Assembly: GCA_963663165.1 (NCBI GenBank)
Contig: OY760175.1
Coordinates: forward strand, 3,680,001-3,744,000
From: an uncultured Desulfospira sp.
GTDB taxonomy: Bacteria > Desulfobacterota > Desulfobacteria > Desulfobacterales > Desulfobacteraceae
DNA length: 64,000 nucleotides
Reading direction: 5' to 3'
Below, piece after piece: positions 3,183 to 62,892 of the stretch. Position 1 is the first letter of the stretch. The number at the start of each line of letters is the position of its first letter. The translations under genes were made by a program, and so were the position numbers. The notes beneath the pieces were generated by a model. The model had not been told where the DNA came from. It did not search any database and saw only the letters and a list, made by a program, of their open reading frames with translations.

Positions 3183-3386
3183 TTGGCGGTCCAGACGGTT
3201 CGAAAAATATCCAGCGGAAACAGCGATGATGATTTCCCTTTGCAGGCGTCTTCCCCATACATCGATGCCGGGGACAACAACGCTGTGCCGCTGGATGAAA
3301 ACGACATAGACGATAATGGCGATACGGATGAGCCCGTCCCCTTTGACCTGAGTGGCGGTGTCCGGTTCTTAAAGGAAATTGAAAAT
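3183..3386 (+). pseudogene. Fragment of a surface-protein C-terminal module (choice-of-anchor Q-like), cut by a MITE
   Basis: DDFPLQASSPYIDAGDNNAVP..DDNGDTDEPVPFDLSGGVRF resembles the DxxLxxxSPxIDAG..DLDGxPR motif; no N-terminus; similarity stops just before the element starting at 3387. Confidence 0.55.
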
Positions 3387-3776
3387 GTAACTGTTCAGCA
3401 GTGCCCCACCTTCGCTCATTCAGGCCTTCTCACATAGCAACAGTATGCTACGAAGCCCTGACTAACGGCCACGGGCCGATTGGATTGTTAATCCGATTCG
3501 GCCCACAACAAATAATGAAACTGAAGATACCGGCAACGGCAGGCTATAAATTGGGCGCCGCAGGTGCTTCGCCCTCTTGTCTCTTGTTTCTTGTCTCCAG
3601 TTTCTTATAAACAGCCACGGGCTGATTTGGTTATCCAACCAAGATCCGCCCACAACAAATATTGAAAGTCTTTACGGGTAGTTAGTCAGACTTTCATATA
3701 AAAACAAATATGAAGCACTGATGAACAGTTACGGACCCTGGTTTTGCTTAGTTTTCAGCATTAGCTGAAGAGTTAC
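3387..3776. mobile_element. Non-autonomous MITE with IS66-like (GTAA) ends, 390 bp
   Basis: Left end GTAACTGTTCAGC; right end 3764-3776 revcomp GTAACTCTTCAGC; perfect 8-bp TSD TTGAAAAT at 3379-3386 and 3777-3784; extra internal right end at 3715-3732. Confidence 0.8.
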
Positions 3777-3784
3777 TTGAAAAT

Positions 3785-13183: not shown

Positions 13184-13705
13184 CAATGTCATTAACTTAA
13201 GCGTTTTCATCACTATAAATTGGGACGGCTCCTATTAACGGCAGCCGCCTTGGTTATCCAACCAAGAGCCGCCCACAACAAATATTGAAAGTCTTCTCAG
13301 GCCGTTTATATGAAAGAATCTGCAAGCTGCTGTAATTCTTTCATGCTTTGTTGTGGGCCGAACCGGATTAACAATCCAATCGGCCCCGGTTTCTGCCCTT
13401 TAGGGTATGGCCGTTAGTGAAACTTTCTTATAAAAAACATCATGAAGAGCACACCTCCCAATGCCTGACCCTGTCCGTTGCTCTCTGTGAAGTTTGGCGC
13501 AGCCAAACCTCGGTGTCCTCTGTGGTTTAAAAACATGAAATCCCAAAGGGATTTCATGTTTTTCTTGAAATTCCTGGTTTGTGAAATCAGCGGGCTTCGC
13601 CCGCATTTTCTATTTAACCACAGAGAGAATAGAGGTTTGGCTTGCGCCAAACTACACAGAGGAGACCTGCAAATAACATACGCGATGCTTAAGTTAATGA
13701 CATTG
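13184..13705. mobile_element. Non-autonomous MITE with IS4-family-like ends, 522 bp
   Basis: Perfect 19-bp TIR CAATGTCATTAACTTAAGC (13184-13202 and 13687-13705); perfect 10-bp TSD AAGGCTGTTT (13174-13183 and 13706-13715); no transposase. Confidence 0.85.
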
Positions 13706-28644: not shown

Positions 28645-28732
28645 AATAAGCAAGAAAAAGCCACACCCGGGGAAACCCGGGGTCGGAAAGCCAGGGGCCC
28701 TGCTCTTGTCAGATAGTCAGAACTGCCCGCGA
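28645..28732 (+). ncRNA. GEMM-I (cyclic di-GMP-I class) riboswitch-like element
   Basis: GCCACACCCGGG-GAAA-CCCGGGGTCGGAAAGCC...GATAG...TGCC; P2 and junction fit the consensus, P3 pairing is weak. Confidence 0.55.
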
Positions 28733-37692: not shown

Positions 37693-38074
37693 TAAACCGG
37701 CCAGGACCTGAAACTTCTGATTAATGTACTGTTACCGCGTTCCCGGAATCCTGTAATTTGTTGTAGTAAATAATCAGCTATGTTGATTGGCATGTCAAAG
37801 TAAATTTTAGTGAAATTCAAGGCGCAAGCGAAAGTTTTAAATAAGCTGTAGTGAACTACTGCGTTTTAAAACTTTTGTGCAGCAACGCTGAATTTCGCAA
37901 AATTTACGCCGACATCAAAGAATTTAAGTTTATCTGTGGAAAAAAGTGGCTAAGCCTCACGACCTATTAGTACCGGTAAGCTCAACATGTTACCATGCTT
38001 ACACACCCGGCCTATCAACCTTGTCGTCTTCAAGGGGTCTTCAGTCCGAAGATGGGATATCTTATCTTGAAGTT

Positions 38075-38107
<33 letters not shown>

Positions 38108-38296
38108 GTACCCAACTTGGCTACCCAGCAATGCCCCTGGCGGAACAACTGGAACACCATTGGTTGGTCCAATCCGGTCCTCTCGTACTAGGATCAGATC
38201 TCCTCAAATATCCTGCGCCCACGAAAGATAGGGACCAAACTGTCTCACGACGTTTTAAACCCAGCTCACGTACCACTTTAATTGGCGAACAGCCAA

Positions 38297-38354
<58 letters not shown>

Positions 38355-38385
38355 GCCCCGTCGATGTGAACTCTTGGGGGCGATA

Positions 38386-38424
<39 letters not shown>

Positions 38425-38863
38425 CGGCCCTTCCATTCAGAACCGCCGGATCACTAAGACCTACTTTCGTACCTGCTCGAAATGTCTCTCTCGCAGTCAA
38501 GCTCCCTTATGCCTTTGCACTCTATGGCTGGTTTCCAATCAGCCTGAGGGAACCTTCGCGCGCCTCCGTTACTCTTTGGGAGGCGACCGCCCCAGTCAAA
38601 CTACCCACCAGACACTGTCCCAAGTCCGGGTTACGGACCATGGTTAGAACACTGAAATATGAAGGGTGGTATTTCAAGGGTGACTCCACCTGTACTGGCG
38701 TACCGGTTTCCTAGTCTCCCACCTATCCTGCACATCATATCCCAAAATCCAATGTCAAGCTGTAGTAAAGGTGCCGGGGTCTTTCCGTCTTTTCGCGGGT
38801 AGACGGTATCTTCACCGCCATTCCAATTTCGCTGAGTCCCTGGTTGAGACAGTGTGGAAGTCG

Positions 38864-38945
<82 letters not shown>

Positions 38946-39658
38946 TGGGGCTTCGGTTCAGTGCTTCGCTTACGCTAACAAATCCCCTTAACCTTCCAGC
39001 ACCGGGCAGGCGTCAGACCCTATACCTCGTCTTGCGACTTTGCAGAGTCCTATGTTTTTAGTAAACAGTCGCTACCACCAATTCTCTGCGGCCCCCAACA
39101 GCTTATTGTGTATACAAATCACCATCAGGGGCATACCTTCTCCCGAAGTTACGGTATCATTTTGCCGAGTTCCTTAACCAGGGTTCTCTCAAGCGCCTCG
39201 GGATACTCTCCCTGCCTACCTGTGTCGGTTTGCGGTACGATCACCTGTTATCTCGATAGAGGCTTTTCTTGGCAGCATGGGTGCAGTCAGTTTATGGGGT
39301 AAACCCCTCCTCATCACTTCTCGGCCTTAGAGTTCCGGATTTGCCTAAAACTCCAGCCTACTAGCTTGAACCGCCTATTCCAGCAGACGGATGACCTGCC
39401 CTCCTGCGTCCCCCCGTCTCTCAAACGATAACAAGGTGGTACAGAAATATTAATCTGTTTTCCATCGACTACGCCTTTCGGCCTCGCCTTAGGGATCGAC
39501 TAACCCTGAGAAGATTAGCTTTACTCAGGAAACCTTGGGCTTACGGCGAGCGGGCCTCTCACCCGCTTTATCGCTACTCATGTCAGCATGGTCACTTGTG
39601 CAACCTCCACACAACCTCACGGTTGCGATTCTTCGGCGGCACAACGCTCTTCTACCAC

Positions 39659-40086
39659 CAAGAAACTAGATACTGGAAACAAGAAACAAGACCTTAACTG
39701 TATCGGTTGATTAAGCCTCGCAGCATTCTTCCGATCTCCTGATATCTTTGATCAAAAAAAGTTTGGTCTTGTTTGCTCAAATACTCAAGGTCTCTTGAAA
39801 ACTCCAGCCATACCCGGCTTTCGTCACATGATCCCATGGCTATTTGAACGAATCTTCTTACATCAGCTTTACTGGATTGCTTGCCCATCCCTTCTGCAAT
39901 ATTTGCCGGGATAGATTTGCTTGACTTCCTTAGTTGTTGAGCCAGTTCATACTGCTCATGCTGGGGAAATCTTAGACTTACTTTGTGCACTTCCAACGCT
40001 AACTGATAAGACTTTTTAAAAACTTCAAGTCTATGGTAAGGCATCATCGCCCTCCTTGTTTCTTGTCTCTAGTATCTAGTTTCTTG
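39659..40086 (-). other. 23S rRNA intervening sequence 1 (helix 45 position), ~428 nt, ORF-bearing
   Basis: Between ACGCTCTTCTACC and CCGCAGCTTCGG; 32-nt inverted arms (30/32 match) built of 7-mers. Confidence 0.92.
39694..40047 (-). CDS. Four-helix-bundle protein (23S rRNA IVP family, Avd-like fold)
   Basis: LEVFKKS..FPQHEQYELAQQLRKSSKSIPANIAEG..IAMGSCDE; AAGGAGG RBS; same strand as the rRNA. Confidence 0.93.
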   Translation of the reverse strand: MMPYHRLEVFKKSYQLALEVHKVSLRFPQHEQYELAQQLRKSSKSIPANIAEGMGKQSSKADVRRFVQIAMGSCDESRVWLEFSRDLEYLSKQDQTFFDQRYQEIGRMLRGLINRYS

Positions 40087-40170
40087 ATCCGCAGCTTCGG
40101 TACTATGCTTTAGCCCCGATACATTTTCGGCGCAGATCCACTCGACCAGTGAGCTGTTACGCTTTCTTTA

Positions 40171-40201
<31 letters not shown>

Positions 40202-40245
40202 TTGTCTGGGCATTCCCACATCCTTCTCCACTTAGCATAGATTTG

Positions 40246-40278
<33 letters not shown>

Positions 40279-40698
40279 CTCGTCCGCGGAACTTAGCTCC
40301 CGCGGGCTGACTCCTGCACTCTAACTTATCGGTATTCGGAGTTTGGTTAGGTTTGGTAATCTGGTGAGACCCCTAGCCCATCCAGTGCTCTACCTCCGAC
40401 AAGAAACGTGCAAGGCTATACCTAAATATATTTCGAAGAGAACCAGCTATCTCCAGGTTTGTTTGGCCTTTCACCCCTATCCACACCTCATCCGAACAGT
40501 TTTTAACCTGTGACGGTTCGGGCCTCCACGAGATTTTACTCCCGCTTCACCCTGGACATGGATAGATCACCTGGTTTCGGGTCTACTCAATACAACTTTC
40601 GCCCTGTTCAGACTCGCTTTCGCTTCGGCTACACCTATCGGCTTAACCTTGCTATATTAAGTAACTCGCTGACTCATTATGCAAAAGGCACGCGGTAA

Positions 40699-40835
40699 CC
40701 AAGAGACTAGAAACAAGAAACTGGAAACAAGATTTCGAACACTCGGTAACTTCCGGTGCCTGTTCAGCCCATTTAAATTGGGCGCCGAAGGCGCTTCGCC
40801 CTCTTGTATCTTGTTTCTTGACTCTAATCTCTTGG
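40699..40835 (-). other. 23S rRNA intervening sequence 2 (helix 25 position), ~137 nt, no ORF
   Basis: Between AAAAGGCACGCGGTAA and CTCCCACAGCTTGTA; 34-nt inverted arms (28/34 match) of the same 7-mer family. Confidence 0.88.
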
Positions 40836-40866
40836 CTCCCACAGCTTGTAAGCAAACGGTTTCAGG

Positions 40867-40918
<52 letters not shown>

Positions 40919-41706
40919 GGTTCGCTATCGGTTGCCAAGTCGTATTTAGCCTTATGTGATGGTCCACACTAATTCCCACAGAATTCCTCGTGTTCCGCAG
41001 TACTTGGGAGTACAATCAGGAGATCGATTATTTTCGCTTACAGGACTGTCACCTTCTTTGGTTAAGCTTTCCAGCTCATTCAACTAATAATCAATTTTTT
41101 TACTCCTGGAATCATCCGAAACTGATTCGCATGCATCCCGCGACCCCGATAACGCAACGCTTTCGGGCTTACACGTTACCGGTTTGGGCTGGTCCCCGTT
41201 CGCTCGCCGCTACTTGGAGAATCGTTTTTACTTTCTGTTCCTGGGGGTACTAAGATGTTTCAGTTCTCCCCGTTACCCTCCTTAACCTATGGATTCAGTC
41301 AAGGATGACACAGTATTGACCGTGTCGGGTTGCCCCATTCAGAAATCTCCGGATCAATGGGTGTTTAGCCCCTCCCCGAAGCTTATCGCAGCTTTCCACG
41401 TCTTTCTTCTTCACTTGGCACCAAGGCATCCGCCGTTTGCTCTTAGTAGCTTAGCCACTATTCCACAAATAAACTTAAACGCTTTGATGTTTTTGAAAAA
41501 ATTGCGATCTTCGGCGTTGCTTCACAAAATTTTTAAAACGACATAGCCTACTATGCCTTATTTAAAAATTTTGTTCGCGCCTTGAAGCTCATCAATTTTT
41601 TCTTCAACATAGCTCGCAAAAGTCTGATCAACATCAAACTCTCACGATTTATGATTAATTCAGTTGCCTTTACGGCAACTGCGCAATTGATATTTACTAC
41701 AACAAA

Positions 41707-59341: not shown

Positions 59342-59420
59342 TTGAGACTTGGGATATGGGACTTGGGGAGGCCGTGGATGCCGCAATCCCCAAGTCCCAT
59401 ATCCCAAGTCCCAAGTCCAA
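59342..59420. repeat. Heptamer (TGGGAYW) inverted-repeat hairpin; sister copy at 62640-62714
   Basis: gacttgggatatgggacttgggga ... tccccaagtcccatatcccaagtc. Confidence 0.85.
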
Positions 59421-62619: not shown

Positions 62620-62892
62620 CAATATTCCTTTTTTTTAAAGGATATGGGATATGGGACATGGGGTTGCCTTGCGGCTTTTCCCGCATGTCCCAAGTCCCAT
62701 ATCCCATATCCCAACCCGGACTTATTCGTTGTGGCCGTTTCTGATCAAAATCCTGTCGGCCCGCCGCCGTTATTGATGTTGATATTTTTTAGCCAAACTA
62801 CCACCTTTAGGTTGTTTTTGGCAACTATCCTGCTAAAATACCGTTCAAATGCTGGTTTGGATAAAAACCTTTTTAAGGAGTAAATTTAGACA

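What the first reader, a model, noticed from the sequence alone, without database searches (positions are those of the whole stretch)
3547..3606. Half of a 23S rRNA intervening sequence sits inside an intergenic MITE 37 kb away
Seen: 3547-3606 matches 40774-40833 at 53/60 nt. The match includes the non-repetitive part TAAATTGGGCGCCG.AGG.GCTTCGCCCTC plus one heptamer arm, so it is not just low complexity. IVSs are usually thought to spread between rrn operons by recombination. Inference: this IVS belongs to a dispersed chromosomal repeat family that has entered the rRNA gene, or was captured from it.
Basis: partly seen in the sequence, partly recalled or inferred. Interest (0 to 1): 0.8.

Follow-up and report, generated by a model that had tools for sequence, protein, structure and literature searches.

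The report
rRNA intervening sequence shares mobile hairpin
A short spacer that interrupts two of this bacterium's three large ribosomal RNA genes is built from the same hairpin module that about 65 small jumping elements carry around the chromosome, which ties a long-unexplained kind of rRNA insert directly to mobile DNA.

Summary
In detail: 3547-3606 matches 40774-40833 at 53/60. The organism is a Desulfospira-genus sulfate reducer with three rrn operons. Two carry a 138-nt helix-25 IVS and a 430-nt helix-45 IVS; the third has neither.

The 60-mer is the best-conserved part of a hairpin module: an apical GC hairpin plus one arm of 7-base repeats. The module occurs in four settings:
- as the helix-25 IVS here, and in all three 23S genes of a Desulfotignum MAG;
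- as the second hairpin of about 45-50 copies of a site-specific mini-element whose head resembles the left end of an IS110-family element;
- as cargo of a 124-bp TIR MITE with 10-bp target duplications;
- in Desulfobacter genomes and metagenomes.

The window copy (3436-3610) is nested in another MITE. Thirty-nine uninterrupted copies of that MITE serve as empty sites.

The IVS carries none of the carriers' ends. I therefore read the IVS and the dispersed copies as sister derivatives of one IVS-type hairpin that transposons spread. The direction of transfer is open. Excision by RNase III is inferred, not shown.

The helix-45 IVS encodes an S23p (PF05635) protein under strong purifying selection, and its arms are identical in three genera.

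This scan has noted heptamer-armed hairpin cassettes on other DNA before. I found no paper that links a classical IVS to MITE cargo.

The parts
3547..3606 (+). The reported 60-mer: conserved core (apical GC hairpin GCRCC-NNN-GGYGC within ..TGGGC..GCCC..) plus the right heptamer-repeat arm of the dispersed hairpin module
   Evidence: 53/60 to 40774-40833. 44 full-length copies in the genome. 27 of 39 core columns are invariant across 20 copies from three genera and four contexts.
3436..3610 (+). Family A mini-element: head 'H' (hairpin + CACAACAAATAATGAAAC, about 3436-3521), then the IVS-like hairpin, ending in TTATAA. It is one of about 45-50 copies.
   Evidence: Copy listing. 223 H tails in the genome, 45 followed by this hairpin. 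Left boundary after CTGACTAA defined by 39 uninterrupted copies of the host MITE. Folds as a modest hairpin, z -2.6 / -2.3.
3611..3701 (+). Second mini-element in tandem: the same kind of head followed by the commoner 'B' hairpin (GAAAGTCT...AGACTTTC), ending in CATATAA
   Evidence: about 150 of 223 heads are followed by B-type hairpins. Its right boundary is fixed by the resumption of the host MITE at 3702.
3387..3776 (+). Host MITE 'R' (ends GTAACTG...AGTTAC) interrupted at 3435/3436 by the two mini-elements. 8-bp target duplication TTGAAAAT at 3379-3386 and 3777-3784.
   Evidence: Uninterrupted copies with their own 8-bp duplications in the congener G001 (L102-L104). 39 uninterrupted junctions and 4 copies interrupted at the same point in this genome.
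40697..40834 (-). Helix-25 intervening sequence (IVS25) of 23S rRNA: 138 nt in place of a 15-nt helix tip. Long stem of heptamer-repeat arms, apical module, and a 39-nt segment not found elsewhere.
   Evidence: Insert in the cmscan alignment after model position 583. Present in 2 of 3 operons. Fold -74.1 kcal/mol, z -7.5. Homologous 94-nt IVS at the same site in three 23S genes of a Desulfotignum MAG.
40774..40833 (+). The part of IVS25 that matches the dispersed module. In rRNA sense it is the 5' arm plus the apical hairpin.
   Evidence: A contig loose end switches to family A sequence exactly at 40774.
39658..40087 (-). Helix-45 intervening sequence (IVS45): 430 nt in place of 16 nt. Its arms use the same heptamer vocabulary as IVS25 and family A, and its 5' junction ..AAGAAACAAGGAGGGCGA.. 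resembles the module's ..ACAAGAGGGCGA..
   Evidence: Same IVS in the Desulfotignum MAG (3 of 3 copies) and in a Desulfobacter-genus genome (2 of 5). Arms identical in the three genera.
39694..40047 (-). ORF of 117 aa inside IVS45: 23S rRNA-intervening-sequence protein / four-helix-bundle protein (S23p)
   Evidence: PF05635 E 1e-33 and weak bAvd hit. TIGR02436 E 2e-33. dN/dS 0.05-0.09 between three genera.

Best explanation
The 60-mer is the conserved unit of an IVS-type hairpin module: a stem built from 7-base repeats (CTTGTTT / CTTGTCT / CCAGTTT on one strand), capped by a small GC hairpin.

In the rRNA gene the module has replaced the tip of helix 25. The roughly 40-bp stem that it forms in the precursor should be cut by RNase III, as for classical IVSs. 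Ribosomes made from operons A and B would then carry a 23S rRNA in pieces, while operon C gives an intact one.

Outside the rRNA the same module is passive cargo in two carriers:
- It forms the second hairpin of a subfamily of site-specific mini-elements. Their head resembles the left end of an IS110-family element, and they insert next to ..TAA/TATAA with an AA on each side. There are about 45-50 copies.
- A half-module sits inside a 124-bp TIR MITE with 10-bp target duplications. There are 17 copies.

These carriers, mobilised in trans by their transposases, account for the dispersal. The IVS and the dispersed copies are sister derivatives of one hairpin. That hairpin is probably a gene-less relative of the S23p-bearing helix-45 IVS, whose arm vocabulary and 5' junction it shares.

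Shown: the homology, the copy numbers, the carrier termini, filled and empty sites, operon polymorphism, and presence in other genera. Inferred: RNase III excision, mobilisation by the IS110-type enzyme, and descent from the ORF-bearing IVS. The direction of transfer is open.
For: Homology: 53/60 ungapped, and 47 nt at 93.6%, E 1e-12. The Desulfotignum IVS25 aligns with the whole family A hairpin at 81 identical of 110 columns. 27 of 39 core columns are invariant in 20 copies from four contexts.

IVS nature: the inserts lie at the helix-25 and helix-45 positions. They are present in 2 of 3 operons, with short native tips in the third. Fold z is -7.5. One RNase III gene is present.

Distribution, decoupled:
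- Among 39 family genomes with the helix-25 region, only G000 and G100 carry this IVS.
- G100 has no dispersed copy.
- G001, G004 and G078 have about 7-10 near-full dispersed copies and no IVS25.
- G002 has neither.

Contexts of the exact core elsewhere: 3 of 19 genome loci are in 23S, all in one MAG. 0 of 11 metagenome loci are in 23S, and 9 of those 11 show head + module + TATAA.

Carrier 1:
- 223 heads in the genome, 45 followed by the module and about 150 by another hairpin.
- Head-to-tail tandems 146 nt apart.
- The window copy interrupts MITE R at a point where 39 other R copies are uninterrupted and 3 others are also interrupted.
- Three identical 1549-bp IS110-family elements begin right after TATAA with a hairpin plus CACAACGAAGCATGAAAC (16/18 to the head's tail) and end in TATATAA.
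- A Desulfobacter latus copy (L015) has an intermediate head.

Carrier 2: 24 TIR-paired elements, 18 of them 124 bp long, 21 with a perfect 10-bp TSD, 17 with the core.

Link to IVS45: shared heptamers and the GAGGGCGA junction. The ORF is PF05635.
Against: No RNA data for this organism were found, so excision and fragmentation are untested.

The IS110 link is thin. blastn-short with the first and last 70 nt of the IS finds only the IS copies, not the heads. The similarity rests on an 18-nt tail, a hairpin at the same place, the shared TATAA ends and one intermediate copy.

The left arm of family A differs much from the reverse complement of its right arm, yet is conserved between Desulfospira and Desulfobacter copies. 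The dispersed form is therefore old and is not simply a decayed IVS.

Covariation in the apical hairpin is weak. One pair changes (G-C to A-T, with G-T and A-C intermediates), and 22 of 500 shuffles reach the score.

The very high conservation of core plus right arm in every context suggests a function of its own, which 'passive cargo' does not explain.

Orientation relative to neighbouring ORFs shows no clear bias. The downstream ORF is co-oriented in 28 of 46 copies, judged on crude ORF calls.
Confidence: 0.68

Rival explanations
1. Carrier to rRNA. A module-bearing mobile element inserted into the loop of helix 25. The carrier parts were then lost and the arms were extended and made symmetric by selection for a clean RNase III stem.
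For: The dispersed form is far more widespread than the IVS. It is found in 4 named species plus 11 metagenome loci, against 2 genomes with IVS25. The congeners G001 and G002 lack IVS25, so the IVS looks recent in this lineage. IS-type inserts in 23S genes with dispersed copies are in print for Nostoc PCC 7120 and Deinococcus (PMC2672173, passages read).
Against: Neither IVS25 (G000, G100) keeps any head, TATAA end, TIR or TSD. The helix tip is replaced, not simply split. The IVS arms are longer and nearly perfectly palindromic, whereas family A lacks the outer roughly 10 bp of the stem and has a divergent left arm.
Confidence: 0.15
2. rRNA to genome by retro-capture. The IVS RNA excised by RNase III is very abundant. 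It was reverse-transcribed and its cDNA was incorporated into a mini-element and a MITE, which then amplified it.
For: The family A hairpin starts inside the stem and lacks the outer roughly 10 bp that would stay with the rRNA after an in-stem RNase III cut. In-stem cuts were mapped for the Coxiella IVS (PMC4990558, passages read). The genome holds at least 8 intact reverse-transcriptase frames. The IVS45 protein is Avd-like (PF22296, weak, below cut-off; NF033474 E 7e-9, below cut-off).
Against: There is no direct sign of retroposition. Capture into two different carriers, each with a different part of the module, is as easily explained by DNA recombination at the repeats. The Avd-like hits are below the curated cut-offs. 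The dispersed form occurs in genomes without any IVS25.
Confidence: 0.1
3. No common descent. The match reflects low-complexity heptamer repeats or independent recruitment of a similar functional motif, for example a terminator-like GC hairpin.
For: The genome is full of heptamer arrays of two kinds. The arm part of the match is repetitive.
Against: The 33-nt non-repetitive core is nearly identical in all contexts. E is 1e-12 for 47 nt. The reversed-pattern control gave 0 hits in 41 genomes. The simple terminator scan does not call the core. No Rfam family matches.
Confidence: 0.02

Closest known systems
Classical helix-25 / helix-45 intervening sequences of 23S rRNA (Salmonella, Proteus, Helicobacter and others), excised by RNase III
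   Same: Same two sites. The helix tip is replaced by an extended stem-loop. Presence is sporadic among operons and among related genomes. Sizes are about 100-140 nt for helix 25. The sites and RNase III processing are as summarised in PMC4990558 (introduction passages read). Salmonella sizes are in PMC2672173.
   Different: Here the IVS shares a specific 47-60-nt module with about 65 dispersed copies carried by mobile elements in the same genome, and with elements in other genera. I found no such link in print. Excision is not tested here.
ORF-bearing helix-45 IVS of Coxiella burnetii and Leptospira (S23p, PF05635)
   Same: IVS45 here is 430 nt (Coxiella: 428 nt), lies in helix 45 and carries a PF05635 ORF in rRNA sense. 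Tandem heptamers lie in the stem next to the start codon. Coxiella has GACAGAT repeats, variable in number between strains (PMC4990558, passages read).
   Different: In Coxiella the ORF is reported as decaying and probably untranslated. Here dN/dS is 0.05-0.09 at dS 0.9-1.7, there is a good AAGGAGG before the ATG, and the arms are identical in three genera. Here there is also a gene-less relative in helix 25 and in mobile carriers.
Insertion sequences inside 23S genes (Nostoc PCC 7120, 1471 nt, COG3547 transposase, 11 other genomic copies; Deinococcus radiodurans)
   Same: An insert in one rrl copy that has homologous copies elsewhere in the genome (PMC2672173, passages read). COG3547 is the IS110-type transposase group, the same kind of enzyme as I propose for carrier 1.
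   Different: Those are whole ISs with their own transposase and terminal repeats. Here the rRNA insert is a small hairpin without any transposon end, at a classical IVS site.
Mini-elements and modular units of IS110-family elements (ISPpu9 / ssr9 module of Pseudomonas putida)
   Same: Gene-less units related to the ends of an IS110-family element. Insertion is into specific repeated sequences (PMC12288879, search listing and abstract only).
   Different: The subfamily here has swapped its second hairpin for an IVS-type hairpin. Membership rests on limited end similarity (one search was negative).
Correia / nemis elements of Neisseria (recalled, not read here)
   Same: Small dispersed hairpin-forming repeats that are co-transcribed with genes and cut by RNase III. 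This is a precedent for a MITE-like hairpin and an IVS being the same kind of RNase III substrate.
   Different: There is no sequence relation. Correia elements are not known from rRNA genes. This comparison comes from memory only.

Membership tests
23S rRNA intervening sequence (IVS) | Extra stem-loop replacing the tip of helix 25 or helix 45 of the 23S gene | tested here: met
   cmscan insert after model position 583. 138 nt in place of 15 nt and 430 nt in place of 16 nt, compared with operon C. The helix numbers are assigned from position and from recalled E. coli numbering.
23S rRNA intervening sequence (IVS) | Sporadic presence among operons and among related genomes | tested here: met
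   2 of 3 operons. IVS25 in 2 of 39 family genomes that have the region, IVS45 in 3 of 39.
23S rRNA intervening sequence (IVS) | Excised from the precursor by RNase III, leaving a fragmented but functional 23S rRNA | not testable with these tools
   No RNA run of this organism was found. A long stem is predicted (z -7.5) and one RNase III gene is present.
MITE in the strict sense (TIRs + target-site duplication, no transposase) | Terminal inverted repeats and a fixed-length TSD, tested for the family A element that holds the 60-mer | tested here: not met
   There are no long TIRs. The ends are an IS110-like head and ..TTTCTTATAA. Only an AA is present on both sides of the insertion in R.
MITE in the strict sense (TIRs + target-site duplication, no transposase) | The same features, tested for the 124-bp family that also carries the module and for the host element R | tested here: met
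   For the 124-bp family: 18-bp TIRs, with a perfect 10-bp TSD in 21 of 24 elements. For R: 8-bp TSDs in the window copy and in the 3 G001 copies inspected.
IS110-family mini-element | Ends derived from an IS110-family element present in the genome | tested here: inconclusive
   The tail matches at 16/18, there is a hairpin at the same place, the start follows TATAA and the end is TATAA. An intermediate head occurs in L015. However, blastn-short with the IS ends finds no head.
IS110-family mini-element | Site-specific insertion without TIRs, with a short shared core at both junctions | tested here: met
   4 insertions at the same point of R against 39 uninterrupted junctions. AA flanks the insert on both sides. 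Head-to-tail tandems are seen.
IS110-family mini-element | DEDD transposase available in trans | tested here: met
   PF01548: 4 matches over the cut-off, 3 of them in identical 1549-bp elements.
S23p / PF05635 ORF-bearing IVS | PF05635 / TIGR02436 ORF in rRNA sense inside a helix-45 stem-loop | tested here: met
   PF05635 116 bits against a cut-off of 33.8. TIGR02436 114.8 bits against a cut-off of 24. Position.
DGR accessory protein Avd | Scores over the curated cut-off of the Avd models | tested here: not met
   PF22296 scores 26.9 bits against a cut-off of 40. NF033474 scores 36 bits against a cut-off of 80. It is a relative, not a member.

The most novel reading that the evidence does not exclude
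The heptamer-armed hairpin is not mere cargo. It is a self-propagating unit that grafts onto the tips of pre-existing hairpins: helix 25, helix 45, and the second hairpin of a mini-IS. Its conserved 5' arm plus apical GC hairpin is the cis site, read by the S23p four-helix-bundle protein encoded by the helix-45 copy.

This would explain three things:
- the same 60 nt are nearly invariant in four unrelated contexts and three genera;
- the IVS45 arms show no change at all while the ORF's synonymous sites are saturated;
- S23p is under strong purifying selection.

It would give IVSs a mechanism of spread and S23p a function.
Probability: 0.2. Interest if true: 0.85.

Novelty: new variant of a known kind. 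Interest (0 to 1): 0.62.

Why it matters
The origin and spread of rRNA intervening sequences have been open since 1990. Both the 'transposon remnant' and the 'mobile element with its own ORF' ideas are still cited as untested (PMC4990558, discussion passage).

This genome holds, side by side:
- an ORF-bearing IVS, with its protein under strong purifying selection;
- a gene-less IVS;
- about 65 copies of the same module on two kinds of demonstrably mobile carriers, with filled and empty sites;
- an IVS-free operon as an internal control.

That makes the question testable in one culturable lineage. Does RNase III cut the dispersed copies? Does S23p bind the conserved arm? Does the module move on its own or only with its carriers?

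It also warns that 23S length heterogeneity and repeats shared between rRNA and intergenic DNA can confuse assembly and rRNA-based typing.

Tried and rejected
- Lateral transfer with flank. I first read the 100% identity of the 163 nt 5' of IVS45 between G000 and G100 as transfer of the IVS with its flank. I rejected this: that flank is conserved in all genomes, and the divergence of the others lies in the 3' half.
- Terminator or promoter role of the module. The simple scan calls neither at the core. There is no clear orientation bias to neighbouring ORFs (crude ORF calls of 120 aa or more).
- Known RNA family. None at gathering score in the window. Only a chance-level hit at E 0.15 in 3400-3720.
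- Covariation in the apical hairpin. Only one pair varies, so this is weak.
- IS ends against heads by blastn-short. No hit.
- Orthologous empty site in congeners. The flanking genes lie 9 kb apart in G001 and G002 has no match. I used paralogous uninterrupted R copies instead.
- RNA evidence. No RNA run holds more than the conserved rRNA flanks. The runs laid are contigs of mixed communities. They show presence of the IVS junctions only and say nothing on excision.
- Viral contigs. 0 matches to the core pattern.
- Literature. Searches found no paper linking a classical IVS to MITE-borne copies, or four-helix-bundle genes to flanking heptamer arrays. The library lacks most subscription journals, so the older IVS papers (Burgin 1990; Ralph and McClelland 1993; Skurnik and Toivanen 1991) were not read. 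One search failed on a term that was too long and was replaced.

Full report
**Observation**

Window 3547-3606 and 40774-40833 agree at 53 of 60 positions without gaps. The left edge of the similarity is sharp and the right edge fades in the repeat arm. Against the whole 6.74-Mb genome the first 47 nt score 93.6% identity, E 1e-12. The second site lies in a 23S rRNA gene on the minus strand (37946-41456). That gene is 3511 nt long against a 2925-position model.

**The rRNA side**

The genome has three rrn operons.
- Operon A (the window) and operon B carry a 138-nt insert (window 40697-40834) in place of a 15-nt tip.
- Both also carry a 430-nt insert (39658-40087) in place of a 16-nt tip.
- Operon C has both short tips.

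By position these are the helix-25 and helix-45 sites. The helix numbers are from recalled E. coli numbering. The two sites are named as the usual IVS sites in PMC4990558 (passages read).

IVS25 folds into a stem of about 40 bp (-74.1 kcal/mol, z -7.5, 0 of 200 shuffles as good).

IVS45 holds a 117-aa ORF that is PF05635 (E 1e-33) and TIGR02436 (E 2e-33). Its Avd-model hits are below cut-off. One RNase III gene is present, in a 551-aa open frame. No RNA data for the organism were found, so excision is inferred from the family's known behaviour.

**The dispersed side**

The 60-mer has 44 full-length hits at 95% identity or more, itself included. A looser core pattern finds 52 sites. Two are the rRNA copies. 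Of the other 50, 46 lie outside my crude ORF calls (120 aa or more) and 4 lie inside such calls, which I did not check.

Each copy is the second hairpin of a unit of about 146 nt. The unit has three parts:
- a head ('H': a small hairpin followed by CACAACRAATAATGAAAC);
- the IVS-like hairpin;
- an end ..TTTCTTATAA.

The genome has 223 such heads. 45 are followed by the IVS-like hairpin, about 150 by a different 'B' hairpin and about 16 by a third kind.

I tested this.
- For: there are three identical 1549-bp elements with a DEDD IS110 transposase. Each begins right after TATAA with a hairpin and CACAACGAAGCATGAAAC (16 of 18 with the head's tail) and ends in TATATAA. Two of the three sit directly behind a ..TTTCATATAA or ..TTCCATATAA end.
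- For: a Desulfobacter latus copy (L015) has a head intermediate between the IS end and H.
- Against: blastn-short with the IS ends does not reach the heads.

I hold the IS110 link at about two in three.

**Proof of insertion**

The window copy is nested. A TIR MITE, 'R' (3387-3776, 8-bp duplication TTGAAAAT on both sides), is interrupted after CTGACTAA by two mini-elements in tandem: 3436-3610 with the module and 3611-3701 with a B hairpin. AA is present on both sides.

In the congener G001 the two halves of R are contiguous in the copies I inspected (L102-L104). In this genome 39 R junctions are uninterrupted and 4 are interrupted at exactly this point. That is recurrent, site-specific insertion.

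**A second carrier**

The core plus one arm, with loop AAC instead of GCA/GAA, also lies inside a 124-bp MITE with 18-bp TIRs. There are 24 TIR-paired elements. 18 are 124 bp long, 21 have a perfect 10-bp duplication and 17 carry the core.

**Other genomes**

The exact core pattern was found in 3 of 41 relatives and in 19 loci of the species collection. By record title these are a Desulfospira MAG, Desulfobacter curvatus, D. latus, D. postgatei and a Desulfotignum MAG. Sixteen of these loci are outside rRNA.

The three Desulfotignum loci are three 23S genes with a 94-nt helix-25 IVS. It is a nearly perfect palindrome of heptamer arms around the same core, at the same site. This IVS aligns with the whole family A hairpin (81 identical of 110 columns) and with the G000 IVS25 apart from a 39-nt extra segment.

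Eleven metagenome loci hold the pattern. None is in 23S, and 9 show head + module + TATAA. Viral contigs gave none.

I surveyed 121 genomes of the family. Thirty-nine have the helix-25 region.
- Only G000 (2 of 3 copies) and G100 (the Desulfotignum MAG, 3 of 3) carry this IVS.
- One G091 copy has an unrelated short extension.
- A longer copy in G129 was not examined.
- The helix-45 IVS occurs in G000, in G100 and in 2 of 5 copies of G078. G092 has an unrelated insert.

BLAST with the window unit shows the two states decoupled:

| Genome | Near-full dispersed copies | IVS25 |
|---|---|---|
| G001 | about 7 | no |
| G078 | about 8 | no |
| G004 | about 10 | no |
| G100 | none | yes (3 copies) |
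| G002 | none | no |

**What is conserved**

Across 20 copies from the four contexts, 27 of 39 core columns are invariant. To the left of the core the sequence differs by context. The conserved unit is core plus right arm, which in rRNA sense is the 5' arm plus the apical hairpin.

The 5-bp apical stem shows one compensated pair. The evidence is weak: 22 of 500 shuffles reach the score.

The junction ..ACAAGAGGGCGA.. of the module resembles ..ACAAGGAGGGCGATG.. of IVS45, where it is the ribosome-binding site and start of S23p. IVS25 and family A use the same heptamer words as the IVS45 arms. I therefore take the module to be a gene-less relative of the ORF-bearing IVS. This is an inference.

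**IVS45**

Between the three genera the ORF has dS 0.9-1.7 and dN/dS 0.05-0.09. The two arms are identical apart from the boundary bases. One of the two G078 copies is frameshifted. The protein is therefore under selection here, unlike the decaying Coxiella ORF (PMC4990558). The arms are constrained in sequence, not only in pairing.

**Related cassettes**

I examined 18 non-rRNA loci with S23p relatives in the family. Six further loci gave no hit in my script and were dropped.
- 13 have an upstream array with 7-nt period.
- 3 more have arrays of 6- or 8-10-nt units.
- 8 show the reverse-complement array downstream.
- The paralogue in this genome does too.

Earlier notes of this scan describe the same packaging on much other DNA. 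They are unverified notes and I use them as leads only. One of them (e1-2372739) is marked as having partly failed a later check.

**Mechanism**

*Shown.* One module occurs in an IVS, in a site-specific mini-element and in a TIR MITE. The carriers are mobile, with filled and empty sites and TSDs. The IVS lacks carrier ends and is operon-polymorphic.

*Inferred.*
- RNase III excises the IVS.
- The IS110-type enzyme moves family A.
- The dispersed hairpins, where transcribed, are RNase III substrates like the IVS.
- The module descends from an S23p-type IVS.

*Open.* The direction of transfer, and why core plus arm stays nearly invariant.

**Rivals**

- Direct insertion of a carrier into helix 25: 0.15.
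- Retro-capture of the excised IVS RNA: 0.10. At least 8 RT frames are present, and the family A hairpin lacks the outer stem.
- Chance or convergence: 0.02.
- Assembly artefact: excluded.

**Novelty**

IVSs, MITEs and IS insertions in rrl genes (PMC2672173) are all known. A classical small IVS sharing its conserved module with cargo of two mobile-element families, in one genome and across genera, was not found in my searches. The library lacks most of the older IVS literature. I class it as a new variant of a known kind.

Noticed in passing
window 3387-3776: A TIR MITE 'R' (ends GTAACTG...AGTTAC) with an 8-bp target duplication (TTGAAAAT). There are 39 uninterrupted and 4 interrupted copies in this genome, and many copies in the congener G001. 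Its internal site CTGACTAA/AC is a recurrent landing site for the mini-elements.
   Followed up: partly
window 13184-13705: A 522-bp element with the same 18-bp TIRs as the 124-bp MITE and a 10-bp duplication (AAGGCTGTTT). It is filled with nested copies of other repeats, including an H head. The parent transposase of this TIR family was not sought.
   Followed up: no
window 59345-59418 and 62640-62711: Two hairpins built from a second heptamer vocabulary (CAAGTCC / CATATCC). This family has many copies genome-wide, each with a roughly 28-bp repeat stem and a roughly 25-nt loop.
   Followed up: partly
genome C1:1448345-1448674 (L097): A distant S23p paralogue (36% identity) outside any rRNA gene. 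It is enclosed by inverted arrays of the CAAGTCC-type heptamer, the same design as IVS45.
   Followed up: partly
loci L068-L094 (relatives): Most S23p relatives outside rRNA in Desulfobacteraceae are preceded by tandem short repeats (13 of 18 with 7-nt period, a different unit per gene). They are often followed by the reverse-complement array (8 of 18).
   Followed up: partly
window 41097-41325 (23S positions 132-358 in rRNA sense): Operon A differs from operons B and C at 7 positions in the first 360 nt of 23S, while A and B share both IVSs. This is a mosaic that suggests gene conversion between operons.
   Followed up: no
genome C1:5256670-5257044: The only RNase III domain lies in a 551-aa open frame, far longer than usual. 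If so, it is the enzyme that would process these IVSs.
   Followed up: no
genome C1:5843290-5843500 and C1:1543226-1543295: Long one-stranded arrays of the CTTGTTT-type heptamer (up to 27 units) without a partner arm.
   Followed up: no
window 28650-28710: c-di-GMP-I riboswitch match just over the gathering score (39.1 against 35 bits).
   Followed up: no
window 41120-41190 (cmscan alignment): Two further small expansions of 23S relative to the Rfam model (about 15 and 25 nt near model positions 283 and 327). They are present in all three operons.
   Followed up: no
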